This document shows, one piece after another, positions 1 to 63,000 of a DNA stretch of 64,000 bases. The position numbers were made by a program. The first letter of the stretch is position 1. Every line of letters begins with the position of its first letter. Source of the DNA: Octopus sinensis (lineage: Eukaryota); NCBI RefSeq assembly GCF_006345805.1, contig NC_042997.1:93372001-93436000 (forward strand), written 5' to 3'.

Positions 1-3000
1 ACATTTCTAACATTTCATACACATGTACAAGTTCATACACATGTAGAAGTTCTTGGCTTTGGGTAAAAGAAAATACAGGAAGATCACTTATTTATGATTT
101 TATTAAACATATTCCCCTCTCAGATTTACAAACTTATTACTGCAGCCCTTCAATTTTACTAAACCTTGTAAAAAAAACTCGGAAGGTTGGGCCTCCAGCC
201 AGGCCTTTTGCAATACCCTTAAAGCCAGGAACTTTTCAGCACTCCTTTATATGTGAATATTCTCACACTACAATTTTATACTTGTTCTTATTAAAAAATA
301 GTTATAGTCAAAGAATTAATTAAAATTTAATTCATCTCATGTAAGTGAGACAGTTACTTAAAAATTCTTTATTTGATGTATCCGTCAGGGAGTTACCGAC
401 TCGAAGGAGTTCAGGAGAGTGCATACCTATTCTAGAACTTCAGTTTAGCACTACAGTTAATTGAAACATTCATCAATTACAAAGCACTTCTTCCATTCTC
501 CCTCTAGTGTCAGTGGACTGGTGAAAGAGTATTCGATGGGATGGCTCCTATTTTCAGCAAAAATTTTTTAAGCCTTGTCTGAAGCAGAAATGAAGTGTCC
601 ATAACCCCTTTTATGATTACTAAGATTAGTCAGAAGGGAAAAAGTTATCTTATGACTAGTGACCTGGTCCAAGAATATTTATTACAGATTAGATTCTACT
701 ACAGGCACCAAATTCCCAGGTTGATGGTGTTAACCTGAGCTTCAGGTTAAGTTTGCTACTCAAATAGTGAATATCACAGTGAATATCAAATGACTGTACT
801 ATGAACCTAACACAGTAGCAATTTTGGAGAATGAATCATCAACCTTTTTACCAATGCTTGATTTGGCTAACTCTGAACAACATAAGTTTCCAAAATAGAA
901 TATAAAACTTTTACTGAAAACCTTAGTTGAAACAACTTTATATATATTTCCTTTTATCTCTTAGTTGTGCAGGAGTGGCTGTGTGGTAAGTAGCTTGCTT
1001 ACCAACCACATGGTTCCGGGTTCAGTCCCACTGCATGGCACCTTGGGCAAGTGTCTTCTGCTATAGCCCTGGGTTGACCAATGCCTTGTGAGTGGATTTG
1101 GTAGACGGAAACTGAAAGAAGCCTGTCGTATATATGTATTTGTGTGTTTGTGTGTCTGTGTTTGGCCCCCTAGCATTGCTTGACAACCAATGCTGGTGTG
1201 TTTACGTCCCCGTCACTTAGCTGTTCGGCAAAAGAGACCGATAGAATAAGTACTGGGCTTACAAAGATTAAGTCCCGGGGTCAATTTGCTCGACTAAAGG
1301 CGGTGCTCCAGCATGGCCACAGTCAAATGACTGAAACAAGTAAAAGAATAAAAGAAAAAAAAAGTTAATCCCCATGGGAAAAAGTTATCATCAAATTAGA
1401 GATGGCAACTTGGCTGCTATAGCTGTTGTTGTTACTGTTTGACTGAAACCAGACTGTGGTTTGCTGTGTCTGAGGTGATGTGTTCCTGCCTCAAATGTCA
1501 GATACCAATTGAAATATGACTGTCTTTTACTATCTTCCATAATAACTATAGAAAAGTTGAGTCATGAAGTGGAAAAGTTAAGTTGTCACTTTTGATTAAT
1601 CAAATTAGACCAAACATTAAAATCGTTTGTTGAAAGGCTAATAGACAAACAAGAAATAAAAATATACCCTTGTGATTTTCAATACAATTTTACAACTACA
1701 TCAAGAATTCCAATCAGTGAACCACAGTTTACAACTTGAATCTAGCCAGAACTTCTGCTTTGCACGTATTATATTCTAATTATGATTTTATCCTTTCTTT
1801 CATTTCCTTTTATTTTTATTTTAGATTGAAAAATTATTTGATGAAAATACTTGGAAAACAATTTGTAGTGACAAAAATATGTTCTATGAAATATTTGCTC
1901 CTGCCACTGTATCAATTGATGACATTGATGAAGTAAGAAAAGCTGTATGTGACACATTAATGAATGGCATTGATACTAAGAAATTACAGATGCAACTGAT
2001 GGGAAATATAGCTGGTTTAAAAGAGCTCATTGACACAGTAAGGTTCTCTGTGGAGTTTTTAGCAGTTTCCTTTTTTTCTTAATATTTAAATTATTTAAAT
2101 AATGAATGAATACTGAAATAAAGTAACAGTTAAATTATAAAATAGCAGCTAAATTAATCTATTCAGTTTATAGATGTTTAAATTCAATTTTAAACTTATC
2201 ATTTTTCTTAACAGCAAGAGAACTTAGTTATCTTATATTCTTCAACAATCATGTGCTTTTTAGATATTCCTTCGCCAGTCTGTTCTCTTCATCTCTACTT
2301 TCTTACCTACTCCTTCACACTCAACTGTTTTTCTTACCTATTTATTGTTCCACTTATAATTTTCCCACCTTTATCCCCTTTGTAATTTTTCCTCAACTTG
2401 AACCTGCTTTGATTGTCTTTATCCCACCTACTACACCTTTCTCTCTGCCATTTTCCCTATTTTTTCTGCTTCCACATATCTCTTTCTCCTTTACAACATT
2501 CACATCTCATTCAACTCTACTAAGCTCCAACCACCTGCACCCCACACAACTCACAACCCCATATGCCCATCTATTTACACAGATACTCTCCTTTATATGT
2601 ACACAACTCCTTGCCTCTTCCTCTCTCTTCACTCCTCCCCATAGAACTGCATTCCCACCTGGCTCCTAATCTTTTGTCTTCCTTCCTTTCCAGCAACCAT
2701 CCTTTTTTCCTTTTTTTTCTTTTTTGATGAAGGACTCTATATCCAAAAGACCCTTTCCCTTTTTCCTTTTTCTTTCCAAGCGTGAAACTAATAACACTTT
2801 TTCTGAAAACTTGTCCTTGTATTTTTTCTTGTTCTTGTTTATTCATCTCAGATTTAATTATCTGGATAAGACTTTTGATAGAGTCCCATACTCTGCAGTC
2901 CAGTGGATGCTAAAGAAGCTATACAAGGATGAATGCTTTGTGAGAAACATGCAAGTCATAGATATAAGTGATGTTAGCAGAGAAGTCAGTGAAAAAATTA

Positions 3001-60000: not shown

Positions 60001-63000
60001 CACGATAGGTGAAAATCCACGAAGTAGAAACAGTACTGTACTGTAAATTTTTTCAATTATTTTTACAATTTGTATATATTTATTTTCTTATAAGTGCAAA
60101 ACAACCCGACAGAGGTATCAAAGTAAGCTTAAATAATAAACCATGATAGGTGAAACGTGGTAGGTGAACTGCAATAGGTGAACTGCGATATGGTAAGGGA
60201 TTACTGAAATTAGATGCACCCAGGACATAACATTGGAAACTTTGTAATACAATTTTTTAATTATTCTTGCTATAAAAGCCTCATGGTAAACTTTTAAGCA
60301 CTCTAGTTTTAATTTTTAAATACTTTGCAGAATAAAGTTAAGGTTATTGAAGGCCATGTTTTCCATGAGCTTTAGATTCTCTAGTTCCTATAGTTCTCTG
60401 GTTGAAACATTTGACAACTTGAGTTTAATTTCATTATCCCTTAAATATGGTACCAAGTGAGCCTGAAACTCTTATTTCTAATGATGAAAAATTGCATTAT
60501 GATTATTGTTATAATTCCGCTGAGGTTAACTTTGCCTTTTATCTTTTTGGAGTCAATGAAATAAGTACCAGTTATGCGCTGGGATCAATATAATTGACTA
60601 TCCCCCACCCCAAAATTTCAGGCTTTGTGCCTTTAGTAGAAAGGAGTATTATTATTATTATTATTATTATTATTACTTTTTTTTTTCTTCTTTCAAATTT
60701 ACTTCCATTTCTTGCCGAGTGTCTTCCCGACTCCTAGGGCAAAGAAACTCATAGTATACATTGGTAGGCCATTAAACTAAACTCAATAGTTCGTTCATTT
60801 TTTTTTTTTTTTTTTAAGTTAAATTAAAATACATGAGCAGCAACAGTTCTCACATCGACAATGCTCTTCTCAATACGTGTGATGTACCAGTTAAGACAAT
60901 CTTTTGCACTTCTTGCAGGGATGGTAAGCCAGGGATCATTCTCATATAATTTTCGGTTCCCTTCTTGATCATTCCCAGCGCCCCCACGATCACCGGTACC
61001 GCAACCGCCCTGAGATGCCACATTTTCTCAATTTCAATGAGTAGGTCTTTATATTTTCTGAGCTTGTCAAACTCTTTCGCTGAGATATTATGATCACAGG
61101 GGATGCTCATGTCAATCAATAAGCAAACTTTATTGTTTTGGTCTTTCACAACAATATCTGGTTTATTGGCCTTGATGGTTCGGTCTGTATGTATTGGAAA
61201 GTCCCACAGAATGGTTACATTTTCTCCTTCAGTTACAGCCTCAGGGTGGTGATTATACCACTTGTCGGCAGTTTTGATATTGTAATGCCGACTTATTAGC
61301 CAGTGTAGATATTGGCCAACTCTGTCATGTCTTAATTTATACTCCACTGGAGCTAAGACTTTACATCCAGAGATTAGGTGGTCCACTGTTTCAATCATGT
61401 CGTTGCAGAATTGGCATTTTGGGTTTGCTCCATTTTTCATCACATTGGCCTGGTAGTTCCGGGTTAATAGGCTTTGATCTTGAGCAGCCAGGATGAAACC
61501 TTCGCTCTCTGCTTTTAGCCCTGAGCTCCGTAGCCACTGATGGGTTTGCTTCTGGTCAACATCAGCTTGTTTGCTGCGGGTCACATATTTGCCGTGCAGA
61601 GGTTTCTCCTCCCACCTATCAGCCAATTGCTCGTGTGCTTTTTTCGTTGCCATTATTTTCACCTTCTTTGCAACAATAATTGCCGTACTTCCCTCGGGTT
61701 GTTCTGTTTGGGTATCCTGCACGAGATCAATAGCAAATTTTTTGCTTTCCTTTATGATAGAATGAAGCTTCTTTCGTCTCTCGTGATTTTCCACGAGCTT
61801 TAGCATCCAGTCATTCGATATTTCAAGATATTTGGCCAGTCCAATTGTGGTTGTTTTGTAAGCTAGTTCAAATTGGATCAGGCCTCGACCTCCTTGGGCT
61901 CTGGGAAGGTAAAGGCGATCTACGTCTGCCTTTGGGTGGTGCATCCTATTACAACTCAGCAGCTTGCGTATTTTCCTATCTATATTTTTTACTTCACTCA
62001 TATTCCAGTTCAACACATTGTAGCTATAAGTAACAACTGGAACTGCTAAGGAATTTATAGCTAACACCTTGTTACGTGCATTTAGTTCAGATTTCAGGAC
62101 TGCACGAACTCTCCTATAACATTCCTTCCTGATCTTCTCTTTCATGCTTGCATGCTGAATACCAGAGCCTTCATTTATCCCTAAATATTTGTATGTTATT
62201 ATTATTATTATTGTTATTATTATTATTATTATTATTATTATTATTATTATTATTATTATTATTATTATCATAAAGTTGGTGAGCTGGTAGAACTGCTAGC
62301 ATGTCAGGCAAAATGCTTAGTGGTATTTTGCCCATCTCTATGTTTTGAGTTCAAATTCTGCCAGGGTCAACTTTGCCTTTCATCCTTTTGGAGTCAATAA
62401 ATTAAGTACCAGTTATGTACTGGGGAATTGTAATCGACTTACCCCCTCCCCCACAATTTCAGGCCTTGTGCTTTAGTAGAAAGGATTATTATTATTATTA
62501 TAAGAGCATTGGGTGACAAGGAAGAATAATTTCAACACTAATAAATAATTACACTAAACTTCTGTCAGAGAGAGAAAGAGACAAACAGCTAAACAGGCAG
62601 ACAGACAGACAGATATATGCTCATGCATACTCAAATATAAATACATATACACATATAATGTGTTAAAAACATGTGAATTTGCTTCTTTTTAGAGCTGGAT
62701 TAAATTACCTGAGACTTATGCAACAAATCGATATTTCCAAACTGCCAACACATTTGCGAGACATGGTTCTAAGAGAGAGGGTAAAAGATTATGTTATGTT
62801 TAATCTCCTTGACTTCATCACCCAGAATATACAGGCATTAGGTAAGACTTCACAGCTACCTACTTTTTCATGTCAAACTTTGTATACAATAATATAATTT
62901 CTTTTGACTAGACAAAACACTAATATTTTACTTTATGATGGACTTCTTGTATGAATAGCTGTTTGATACCTTTTAAGGTGGTACATTTAAAGAACATTAA

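What the first reader, a model, noticed from the sequence alone, without database searches (positions are those of the whole stretch)
1825..62841. Hidden giant repeat protein built from a strictly periodic four-exon cassette
Seen in sequence: 23 GT-AG exons splice into one stop-free frame of about 1,377 aa. Intron phases cycle 0,2,1,0 without exception. Exon lengths cluster by class: A 198-213, B 203-233, C 140-158, D 128-137 nt. Complete units are 714, 723, 741, 720 and 684 nt (228-247 aa), followed by a partial sixth. Class-specific motifs recur: A carries W-x3-C (W is V in A3) and a terminal G(F/L) motif, B4-B6 carry PP(K/R), C carries (K/E/D)F, and D ends in (N/D/R)P. The units are too diverged to show as DNA repeats, and the ORF track misses C1, C3 and C5 entirely. 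Inference: an old tandem amplification of a 240-aa module that I cannot match to a named domain, extending beyond both window ends.
Basis: partly seen in the sequence, partly recalled or inferred. Interest (0 to 1): 0.85.

Follow-up and report, generated by a model that had tools for sequence, protein, structure and literature searches.

The report
Octopus giant ABCA transporter repeat exons
This stretch of octopus DNA encodes six copies of a roughly 230-residue module, each built from the same four exons, forming part of the enormous outer domain of an already annotated ABCA12/13-type lipid-transporter gene, so the gene is real but not hidden, and the module has no name yet.

Summary
23 plus-strand GT-AG exons (4,132 nt, 1,377 codons) run stop-free, with exon-start phases cycling 0,0,2,1 and the stated class lengths and unit sizes. 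It is not a hidden gene. All 23 exon peptides are 100% identical to, and contiguous in, residues 1901-3277 of RefSeq 'uncharacterized protein LOC115214454 [Octopus sinensis]', 6,779 aa. That protein is an ABCA full transporter: TM1 at 22-47, a first extracellular domain (ECD1) of about 5,250 aa, and two Walker A and signature motifs. The window encodes 6 of its 16 recognisable ~230-aa units. The same unit occurs 5-20 times in giant ABCA proteins of molluscs, an annelid, a priapulid, a brachiopod and echinoderms: 39 of 126 long proteins, 499 domains, 0 in a reversed control. No Pfam family covers it. An alignment to solved ABCA1 brackets the array and suggests ABCA1 holds one copy of the unit's first half, including its Cys pair. 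Vertebrate ABCA12/13 show only weak signals. The verdict is a known transporter kind with an undescribed, tandemly amplified ECD1 module. The joined translation was never built or searched.

The parts
1825..2037 (+). exon A1 (213 nt, phase 0 in / 0 out)
   Evidence: AG/GTAAGG. 100% identical to P0023 1901-1971. Leave-one-out rank 1, E 8.5e-9.
4060..4286 (+). exon B1 (227 nt, phase 0 in / 2 out)
   Evidence: P0023 1972-2046, 100%. Leave-one-out rank 1, E 5e-5.
4808..4947 (+). exon C1 (140 nt, phase 2 in / 1 out)
   Evidence: P0023 2048-2093, 100%. 62% identical to Argonauta P0002 600-644. Leave-one-out rank 1, E 0.024.
5754..5887 (+). exon D1 (134 nt, phase 1 in / 0 out)
   Evidence: P0023 2095-2138, 100%. 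57% identical to P0002 647-690. Leave-one-out failed, rank 166.
7768..7977 (+). exon A2 (210 nt)
   Evidence: P0023 2139-2208, 100%. Leave-one-out rank 1, E 2.8e-10.
9839..10059 (+). exon B2 (221 nt)
   Evidence: P0023 2209-2281, 100%. 45% identical to P0002 743-806. Leave-one-out rank 7.
13062..13219 (+). exon C2 (158 nt)
   Evidence: P0023 2283-2334, 100%. 54% identical to P0002 813-858. Leave-one-out rank 35.
17888..18021 (+). exon D2 (134 nt)
   Evidence: P0023 2336-2379, 100%. Leave-one-out rank 1, E 0.024.
18879..19091 (+). exon A3 (213 nt)
   Evidence: P0023 2380-2450, 100%. Leave-one-out rank 1, E 1.2e-9.
20143..20375 (+). exon B3 (233 nt)
   Evidence: P0023 2451-2527, 100%. 40% identical to P0002 983-1053. 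Leave-one-out rank 2.
21918..22075 (+). exon C3 (158 nt)
   Evidence: donor GTTAGT. P0023 2529-2580, 100%. 48% identical to P0002 1055-1105. Leave-one-out rank 336.
29257..29393 (+). exon D3 (137 nt)
   Evidence: P0023 2582-2626, 100%. 73% identical to P0002 1108-1151. Leave-one-out rank 1.
29784..29993 (+). exon A4 (210 nt; boundaries refined here)
   Evidence: Polypyrimidine acceptor and GTAAGT donor. Restores the invariant Gly. P0023 2627-2696, 100%. Leave-one-out rank 1.
32927..33159 (+). exon B4 (233 nt)
   Evidence: P0023 2697-2773, 100%. Leave-one-out rank 1, E 1.3e-5.
34949..35088 (+). exon C4 (140 nt)
   Evidence: The only AG..GT solution in its frame. P0023 2775-2820, 100%. Leave-one-out rank 1.
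38985..39121 (+). exon D4 (137 nt)
   Evidence: P0023 2822-2866, 100%. Leave-one-out rank 1.
40128..40325 (+). exon A5 (198 nt)
   Evidence: P0023 2867-2932, 100%. Leave-one-out rank 1, E 1.4e-15.
43281..43495 (+). exon B5 (215 nt)
   Evidence: P0023 2933-3003, 100%. Leave-one-out rank 1.
47890..48032 (+). exon C5 (143 nt)
   Evidence: P0023 3005-3051, 100%. Leave-one-out rank 1, E 0.13.
52987..53114 (+). exon D5 (128 nt)
   Evidence: P0023 3053-3094, 100%. Leave-one-out rank 1, E 6.7e-6.
53666..53863 (+). exon A6 (198 nt)
   Evidence: P0023 3095-3160, 100%. Leave-one-out rank 1.
58574..58776 (+). exon B6 (203 nt)
   Evidence: P0023 3161-3227, 100%. Leave-one-out rank 1.
62693..62841 (+). exon C6 (149 nt); the gene continues beyond the window
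   Evidence: P0023 3229-3277, 100%. Leave-one-out rank 292.

Best explanation
The window lies inside an annotated octopus gene. It is most likely Octopus sinensis LOC115214454, given 100% identity over all 23 exon peptides. The gene encodes a 6,779-residue ABCA-type full transporter.

Shown:
- The 23 exons encode residues 1901-3277 of the first extracellular (or luminal) domain, ECD1. ECD1 spans about 5,250 residues between TM1 (22-47) and the next membrane segments (from 5294), and it contains 16 recognisable ~230-residue units.
- Each unit is one four-exon cassette, with intron positions homologous between units.
- Each unit has exactly two cysteines, both in exon A, and N-glycosylation sequons are enriched.
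- The same unit, at the same ~225-235-residue period, fills ECD1 of giant ABCA proteins in molluscs, an annelid, a priapulid, a brachiopod and echinoderms.
- The array sits where ABCA1 has about 53 residues, and the first unit aligns to ABCA1 ~195-308 with both cysteines matched.

Inferred:
- A helical subdomain that ordinary ABCA proteins carry once was amplified in tandem in the lineage leading to ABCA12/ABCA13-type giants.
- The array still changes in copy number by unequal recombination between homologous introns. Every intron class has one fixed phase, so gaining or losing a whole period keeps the frame. Exon A is 0-0 symmetric, so it can be dropped alone.
- By analogy with ABCA1, ABCA4, ABCA12 and ABCA13, the protein moves lipid across a membrane. 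The glycosylated, disulfide-stapled, all-helical array extends the exoplasmic ECD as a long appendage that takes part in sorting or localisation, or in holding lipid or a partner.

The function is not tested here.
For: - **Exon model:**
- **Identity to RefSeq:** 23 of 23 exon peptides are 100% identical and contiguous in P0023, with single-residue gaps only at phase-1 and phase-2 junctions.
- **Independent orthologue models:** 14 of 14 exons A1-B4 map colinearly to Argonauta hians P0002 455-1290 at 32-73% identity. O. bimaculoides P0024 is 67-89% identical per exon.
- **Transporter identity:** P0023 has precomputed Pfam PF00005, PF12698 and PF23321, Walker A at 5552 and 6457, signature motifs at 5648 and 6556, and hydrophobic segments at 22-47 and from 5294.
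- **Relatives:** 405 giant relatives at E<=1e-10, with vertebrate ones named ABCA12 or ABCA13.
- **ABCA N-terminus ahead of the units:** Owenia P0010 residues 1-262 match ABCA1/4/7 N-termini at E~3e-15 and are followed by units.
- **Bracketing by ABCA1:** scallop P0029 5-324 aligns to ABCA1 14-308 with both unit cysteines aligned, and P0029 2806-3573 aligns to ABCA1 362-1143.
- **Unit distribution:** 39 of 126 long proteins, 499 domains, 0 in the reversed control.
- **Periodicity controls:** offsets at multiples of ~225-235 with probability 97-100%.
- **Intron positions on the unit profile:** A|B at 65 in 6/6 units, C|D at 185 in 5/5, B|C at 129-139.
- **Cysteines and sequons:** 2 Cys per A exon and none elsewhere; 24 sequons against 12.6 +/- 3.1 in shuffles.
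- **Copy-number differences between octopod models:**
- **Core tree:** molluscs including octopus 99/98; vertebrate A12+A13 100/100; echinoderms as their sister 96/93.
[quoted passage not shown] ABCA ECDs form a base, tunnel and stalk with a hydrophobic tunnel (PMC13161189).
Against: - No transcript evidence could be examined. The independent support is conservation in other species' models.
- Six of 23 exons (B2, B3, C2, C3, C6, D1) are not recovered by leave-one-out profiles.
- The unit is not significantly detected in vertebrate ABCA12/13 or in the tick and Bulinus proteins.
- The tree has no outgroup and no other ABCA subfamilies. For 11 rows under half of the kept columns were filled, which I put down to my Walker A pattern finding only the second nucleotide-binding domain.
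- The structure model was poor (mean pLDDT 43.8, pTM 0.27), so 'all-helical' is weakly based.
- The ABCA1 correspondence covers only about the first half of a unit and comes from one pairwise HMMER alignment.
- Function, localisation and substrate are inferred from vertebrate relatives only.
Confidence: 0.87

Rival explanations
1. One reading: a stand-alone, previously unseen giant repeat protein whose whole body is the 240-aa module.
For: The partial models P0002 (Argonauta, 4,510 aa) and P0003/P0022 (cuttlefish) consist only of units, with no Pfam domain and no hydrophobic segment.
Against: Those models are flagged partial. The full octopus models carry the units between an ABCA N-terminus and two ABC cassettes. 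The same layout recurs in dozens of species annotated independently. Alignment to ABCA1 brackets the array on both sides.
Confidence: 0.03
2. A gene-model fusion: the repeat exons belong to a separate gene nested between the first exons and the core of an ordinary ABCA gene, and annotation pipelines wrongly chained them.
For: All the long proteins are computed models, and no transcript data were seen here.
Against: The array is in frame with both flanks in models from different pipelines and phyla. An ABCA protein needs an ECD1 between TM1 and TM2, and the two ABCA1-homologous ECD1 pieces lie directly on either side of the array. The first unit is itself homologous to ABCA1 sequence. Mouse ABCA13 is detected at over 460 kDa with its long N-terminal region (PMC7948424, passage).
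Confidence: 0.05
3. The gene is the specific orthologue of vertebrate ABCA13 (or of ABCA12), rather than a pro-orthologue of both.
For: Sources name invertebrate relatives variously as ABCA12, ABCA1 or 'ABCAC-like'. The weak unit signal is somewhat clearer in ABCA13 with HMMER, where 14 of 17 have a domain of at least 8 bits, and in ABCA12 with hhalign (score 40.1).
Against: In the core tree, vertebrate ABCA12 and ABCA13 group together (100/100) to the exclusion of echinoderm and protostome giants, and the tree mirrors the species tree.
Confidence: 0.12
4. The chain of 23 open AG...GT segments is a chance artefact of an AT-rich, intron-like sequence.
For: Many alternative open AG...GT segments of C-exon size exist in the long introns.
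Against: 17 of 23 held-out exons rank first among 2,014 frames. All 23 are present in order in orthologous proteins of other species. Splice sites are strong almost throughout.
Confidence: 0.01

Closest known systems
Vertebrate ABCA13 (the largest ABC transporter, with a long N-terminal/ECD1 region)
   Same: It has an ABCA core with two TMD-NBD halves and a giant ECD1 between TM1 and TM2 (over 3,500 aa in human, PMC3293240 passage). That region has no recognised domain and is needed for localisation and cholesterol internalisation (PMC7948424 passages). It sits in the same clade as ABCA12 in the core tree. A weak internal duplication is visible in ECD1 (probability 88-90%).
   Different: The octopus unit profile does not reach significance on it (best 15.7 bits, hhalign probability 4.5%). 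Its ECD is encoded partly by one 4.8-kb exon (title of Prades et al. 2002, seen only in reference lists) rather than by four-exon cassettes. The octopus protein is longer: 6,779 against 5,058 aa.
Vertebrate ABCA12 (glucosylceramide transporter of lamellar granules)
   Same: Same clade. Fish and lungfish forms are also giants of 3,730-7,012 aa. It handles lipid in a secretory organelle (PMC13161189 passage).
   Different: The unit is at best marginal (hhalign score 40.1, probability 40%; HMMER 10.7 bits or less). Human ABCA12 is only 2,595 aa (PMC3293240 passage).
ABCA1 / ABCA4 / ABCA7 (solved structures)
   Same: The N-terminus, TM1 and start of ECD1 match (E~3e-15), as does the whole core (E=0). 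ABCA1 ~195-308 aligns to the first unit with both cysteines matched.
   Different: They have one copy against 16, and the array replaces about 53 residues of ABCA1 (309-361). Exon-class profiles and the repeat-only protein P0002 find no solved structure by sequence.
Periodic exon cassettes of other giant repeat proteins, such as nebulin or titin super-repeats (recalled; analogy only)
   Same: A multi-exon cassette with phase symmetry is amplified in tandem.
   Different: There is no sequence or family relationship, and nothing was tested here.

Membership tests
ABCA subfamily full transporter | N-terminal TM1 followed by a very large first extracellular domain | tested here: met
   P0023 has a hydrophobic segment at 22-47 and the next ones from 5294. 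The Owenia and scallop N-termini match ABCA1/4/7.
ABCA subfamily full transporter | Two nucleotide-binding domains with Walker A and ABC signature, and ABC-2-type membrane domains | tested here: met
   Walker A at 5552 and 6457 and signature at 5648 and 6556 in P0023. Precomputed PF00005, PF12698 and PF23321. The same domains were scanned directly in relatives P0029 and P0049. P0023 itself is too long for the Pfam tool.
ABCA subfamily full transporter | The window's exons are part of that polypeptide | tested here: met
   23 of 23 exon peptides are 100% identical and contiguous at P0023 1901-3277. No transcript evidence was seen.
ABCA12/ABCA13 clade | The transporter core groups with ABCA12/13 rather than other ABCA subfamilies | tested here: inconclusive
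   The tree of 32 giant proteins mirrors the species tree, with A12+A13 as one vertebrate clade. No other ABCA subfamily or outgroup was available, because the search length window excluded them.
ABCA13 long N-terminal region | Homology of the octopus unit to the vertebrate ABCA13/12 ECD1 expansion | tested here: inconclusive
   No hit at 1e-4. hhalign scores 29.5 (A13) and 40.1 (A12) against column-shuffled maxima of 14.7 and 16.2, but probability is 4.5% and 40%. With filters off, 14 of 17 ABCA13 and 5 of 14 ABCA12 sequences have a domain of at least 8 bits, against 0 in local shuffles.
Any named Pfam repeat or domain | A score above the curated cutoff on the exon peptides or on repeat-only proteins | tested here: not met
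   0 of 23 exon peptides. P0002, P0003 and P0010 give nothing credible. In P0029 and P0049, Pfam hits lie only in the transporter core.
Extracellular or luminal glycoprotein module | Topology outside the cytosol, paired cysteines and N-glycosylation sequons | tested here: met
   The position between TM1 and TM2 of an ABCA protein. 2 Cys per unit, both in exon A. 24 sequons against 12.6 +/- 3.1 expected. Actual glycosylation and disulfides are not testable here.

The most novel reading that the evidence does not exclude
The ~230-residue unit is the ancestral building block of the unexplained giant ECD1 ('long N-terminal region') of the whole ABCA12/ABCA13 lineage. On this reading, a helical, disulfide-stapled subdomain present once in ABCA1-type proteins (about residues 195-310 and beyond) was amplified before the protostome-deuterostome split. 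Invertebrates keep a legible array of 5-20 cassettes, and the vertebrate ABCA13/12 expansions are degenerate remnants of the same array. That would give the first domain definition and a tractable model for a region that ABCA13 function requires.
Probability: 0.35. Interest if true: 0.6.

Novelty: new variant of a known kind. Interest (0 to 1): 0.42.

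Why it matters
ABCA13 is the largest ABC transporter. Its long extracellular region is required for function, yet it is described as lacking any conserved domain (PMC7948424), and a 2026 review says the specifics of its molecular structure remain largely unexplored (PMC13161189). The octopus window shows that in invertebrate relatives this region is a legible tandem array of one ~230-residue module with a fixed four-exon, phase-compatible gene structure, and that the module is anchored in sequence ABCA1 also has.

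That offers three things:
- a candidate new protein family for the domain databases;
- a route to model the giant ECDs unit by unit;
- a clean example of how a phase-symmetric exon cassette lets an extracellular domain grow and shrink.

For genome annotation it is ordinary: the gene is already in RefSeq.

Tried and rejected
- **Pfam on exon peptides.** Only sub-cutoff, single-member hits.
- **Exon-class profiles against solved structures.** Best E 0.43 and 0.044, to unrelated proteins.
- **P0002 against solved structures.** 0 hits.
- **Word-index search with the class-A alignment.** It found only P0001, a read-through ORF over exon A4 from an unnamed contig. That search cannot see proteins over 2,000 aa.
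- **ESM Atlas.** No usable hit and no model.
- **AlphaFold2 of the cuttlefish fragment P0003 with 22 whole relatives as alignment.** Mean pLDDT 43.8 and pTM 0.27. The alignment stretched the last ~170 residues over transporter cores.
- **Foldseek of that model against the PDB.** Best E 0.068 and TM 0.07 or less. Meaningless, so discarded.
- **Reversed-alignment control for hhalign.** It gave near-constant scores of ~135-148 even for 9-column matches, an artefact. I discarded it and replaced it with 8 column shuffles.
- **My first reading that Owenia has a ~470-aa period.** This came from narrow octopus-only class profiles. The broadened profile shows contiguous ~230-aa units.
- **My first dismissal of P0004 as low-complexity noise (after).** This was wrong: it has 12 units. 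Its organism is not given.
- **The idea that the isolated last unit lies inside the ABCA1-homologous C-terminal part of ECD1.** Not supported. In the scallop it ends at 2630, upstream of the aligned block starting at 2806.
- **Left unchecked.** The closed collections (metagenome contigs, viral contigs) and paper supplements were not consulted. RNA-seq support and the exon structures of other species stayed unchecked.
- **Joined translation.** It was never assembled, printed or searched. All searches with window sequence were exon by exon or by exon class.

Full report
**What is in the sequence.** The window is AT-rich (GC 0.30-0.41 per 4 kb), full of microsatellites and transposon ORFs, and not human-like. 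The resulting 23 exons total 4,132 nt. None has an internal stop, and none of the 11 split junction codons is a stop. Exon-start phases are 0,0,2,1 in every unit. Nearly all sites have polypyrimidine acceptors and GTAAGT- or GTATGT-type donors. Exon A4 is better placed at 29784-29993 than at 29754-29963: the length is the same, but it has a proper acceptor, a GTAAGT donor and the conserved G-F motif. Every length, unit size and motif in the finding checks out.

**Is the periodicity more than chance?** For each exon I built an HMM from the other members of its class and scanned all 2,014 frames of at least 20 aa on both strands. The held-out exon ranked first in 17 of 23 cases: A 6/6 with E 1e-9 to 1e-15, B 4/6, C 3/6, D 4/5. 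The failures were B2, B3, C2, C3, C6 and D1. Full-class HMMs found no further copy anywhere in the window, so there is no D exon before 1825 or after 62841. Within-class identity is 14-47%.

**What the gene is.** I searched window sequence exon by exon or by exon class only, and never assembled or searched the joined translation. Pfam gave nothing for any of the 23 exon peptides. The class-A exon profile, scored against 1.84 billion representative proteins, hit a 4,510-aa protein in 16 stretches (E 3e-139), along with cuttlefish and annelid proteins. These are unnamed or hypothetical partial proteins of Argonauta hians, Acanthosepion pharaonis and Owenia fusiformis. Exons A1-B4 map colinearly and contiguously to Argonauta residues 455-1290, with the weak exons C1-C3 in their predicted slots. 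A search seeded from the Argonauta protein returned full-length octopus proteins. All 23 exon peptides are 100% identical to, and contiguous in, residues 1901-3277 of 'uncharacterized protein LOC115214454 [Octopus sinensis]' (6,779 aa), with one-residue gaps exactly at the phase-1 and phase-2 junctions.

That protein has an ABCA-type N-terminus with TM1 at 22-47. It has no further hydrophobic segment until 5294, and it has Walker A motifs at 5552 and 6457 and signature motifs at 5648 and 6556. It carries precomputed ABC_tran, ABC2_membrane_3 and R1_ABCA1 domains (the accessions are named). The Owenia protein's first 262 residues match ABCA1, ABCA4 and ABCA7 N-termini at E~3e-15.

**The unit and its distribution.** A search with the transporter half of P0023 returned 405 giant relatives. 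The best 120 listed include molluscs, a priapulid, a brachiopod, a tick, echinoderms, fish ABCA12, and bird, amphibian and shark ABCA13. I built a local profile seeded from units of the public octopus protein and iterated it three times. It found 499 domains in 39 of the 126 stored proteins longer than 1,000 aa, and none in the reversed sequences. The 39 are all listed mollusc giants except Bulinus, plus the annelid, priapulid, brachiopod and echinoderm proteins, with 5-20 units each. The 87 proteins not hit include every vertebrate ABCA12/13 and the tick. P0023 has 16 units between residues 198 and 4787. Self profile-profile comparison of gastropod and oyster ECD1 alignments shows off-diagonal matches at multiples of ~225-235 residues with probability 97-100%.

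On the unit profile, the window's A|B junctions fall at position 65 in 6/6 units and the C|D junctions at 185 in 5/5. The B|C junctions fall at 129-139. D|A falls at the unit edge in the four A exons that mapped; A2 and A5 begin just outside a matched stretch. Whole cassettes, introns included, were therefore duplicated.

**Relation to ordinary ABCA proteins.** The scallop giant aligns to solved ABCA1 in blocks. Residues 5-324 match ABCA1 14-308, and residues 2806-3573 match ABCA1 362-1143, followed by the rest of the core. The first unit (scallop 209-416) overlaps the first block, and both unit cysteines align with ABCA1 cysteines. The array of about 2,480 residues therefore stands where ABCA1 has about 53, and ABCA1 seems to hold one copy of at least the first half of the unit. 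This rests on one pairwise alignment. Exon-class profiles and the repeat-only Argonauta protein find no solved structure by sequence.

**Placement in the family.** I built a maximum-likelihood tree of the transporter core of 32 giants. One row, P0052, was dropped because my Walker A pattern missed it. For 11 rows under half of the kept columns were filled, which I take to mean that the pattern found only their second nucleotide-binding domain. The tree mirrors the species tree: molluscs including the octopus 99/98, echinoderms sister to vertebrates 96/93, and vertebrate ABCA12 plus ABCA13 as one clade 100/100. It has no outgroup and no other ABCA subfamily. The most economical reading, that the octopus gene is a pro-orthologue of the ABCA12/ABCA13 pair, is therefore provisional.

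**Vertebrates.** The unit is not significantly found there. There is weak signal:
- hhalign scores are 40.1 (ABCA12, probability 40%) and 29.5 (ABCA13, 4.5%), against maxima of 16.2 and 14.7 in 8 column-shuffled controls.
- With HMMER filters off, 14 of 17 ABCA13 ECD1s have a domain of at least 8 bits, against 0 of 85 locally shuffled sequences. 5 of 14 ABCA12 ECD1s reach 8 bits, against 0 of 70.
- ABCA13 ECD1 shows one internal duplication at probability 88-90%.

Shuffles destroy helical periodicity, so these controls are lenient.

**Features bearing on mechanism.** All 12 cysteines encoded in the window lie in A exons, two per exon. Sequons number 24 against 12.6 +/- 3.1 in shuffles. Both fit an exoplasmic, glycosylated, disulfide-stapled module, as the ABCA topology demands. 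The only structure model obtained is all-helical but unreliable (pLDDT 43.8), and its PDB search was meaningless.

Octopod gene models differ in unit content:
- O. bimaculoides has two extra units between C5 and D5, and the window has no unannotated copies in that intron.
- O. vulgaris is 339 aa longer.
- Argonauta has a run of near-identical 230-aa units and several B-C-D units without A.

Each intron class has a single phase, so recombination between homologous introns of different units preserves the frame. Exon A is 0-0 symmetric. These differences could also be assembly or annotation artefacts.

**Literature.** I ran five full-text searches. None returned a paper describing an internal repeat or exon cassette in ABCA12/13-type ECDs. 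In the ten papers listed, the terms 'internal repeat' and 'exon duplication' occur zero times. I read passages only, from three papers:
- PMC7948424 states that the ABCA13 N-terminal region has no homology to known human proteins and no well-conserved domain, yet is required for vesicular localisation and cholesterol internalisation.
- PMC3293240 gives 62 exons, 5,058 aa and an ECD of over 3,500 aa.
- PMC13161189 (2026) calls the ECDs of ABCA2, ABCA12 and especially ABCA13 abnormally large, says the specifics of ABCA13's molecular structure remain largely unexplored, and describes the base, tunnel and stalk ECD with a hydrophobic tunnel.

Subscription papers (Prades 2002, Barros 2003) were seen only as references. 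Supplements were not available.

**Verdict.** It is an old tandem amplification of an unnamed module, but within a known and annotated kind of gene: an ABCA12/13-type transporter. The module itself is apparently undescribed, widespread in invertebrates and anchored in ABCA1 sequence. It is of moderate interest, because it may explain what the giant ABCA13/12 extracellular regions are made of.

Noticed in passing
window 23864-26128 (+), 41001-42104 (-), 60850-62295 (-): Retroelement ORFs lie inside introns C3-D3, A5-B5 and B6-C6. A 754-aa ORF has RVT_1 (E 1.4e-14). Two ORFs have zf-RVT: E 4.2e-8, and 5e-4 below the cutoff.
   Followed up: partly
window 55161-56216 (+) and 43691-44848 (-): Tc1/mariner-type transposase remnants lie in introns A6-B6 and B5-C5. 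HTH_Tnp_Tc3_2 and DDE_3 sit in two adjacent ORFs in the same frame, split by one stop. A Mos1-type HTH_48 plus DDE pieces lie on the minus strand.
   Followed up: partly
window 35541-37650 (-), with 36020-36289 (-) and 36836-37030 (+): A Helitron_like_N ORF (E 1.4e-28) lies in intron C4-D4. Nearly the same ~60-aa peptide is readable on both strands about 600 nt apart, which suggests an inverted duplication.
   Followed up: no
window ~40400-43100 (intron A5-B5): The same minus-strand peptide stretches recur two or three times (ORFs 40679-40879, 41001-42104, 42070-42434), so the zf-RVT element is present in tandem or nested copies.
   Followed up: no
P0024 residues 840-1297 versus window intron 48033-52986: The O. 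bimaculoides protein model has two extra D-A-B-C units between the counterparts of C5 and D5. The window has no such exons in that intron. This is either real copy-number change or an assembly or annotation difference.
   Followed up: partly
P0002 (Argonauta hians) residues 1392-2310 and 2313-2802: There is a run of four units at an exact 230-aa spacing with near-equal profile scores, which suggests recent amplification. It is followed by three B-C-D units lacking exon-A sequence. Exon A is the only 0-0 symmetric exon.
   Followed up: no
P0021 cluster (12 members of 81 aa, one unnamed 214,679-nt contig): Twelve near-identical class-A-like ORFs lie on one contig, which looks like a very recently amplified array in another genome. 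I did not trace its origin.
   Followed up: no
P0099 (name) in the tree: A fish protein named ABCA13 by its source (Trachinotus) groups inside fish ABCA12 with full support, so the source name is probably wrong.
   Followed up: no
window, many sites, e.g. 9276-9673, 22263-22688, 54603-54975: Long (TA)n- and (CA)n-type microsatellites fill much of the introns, visible as YIYI.../CVCV... frames.
   Followed up: no
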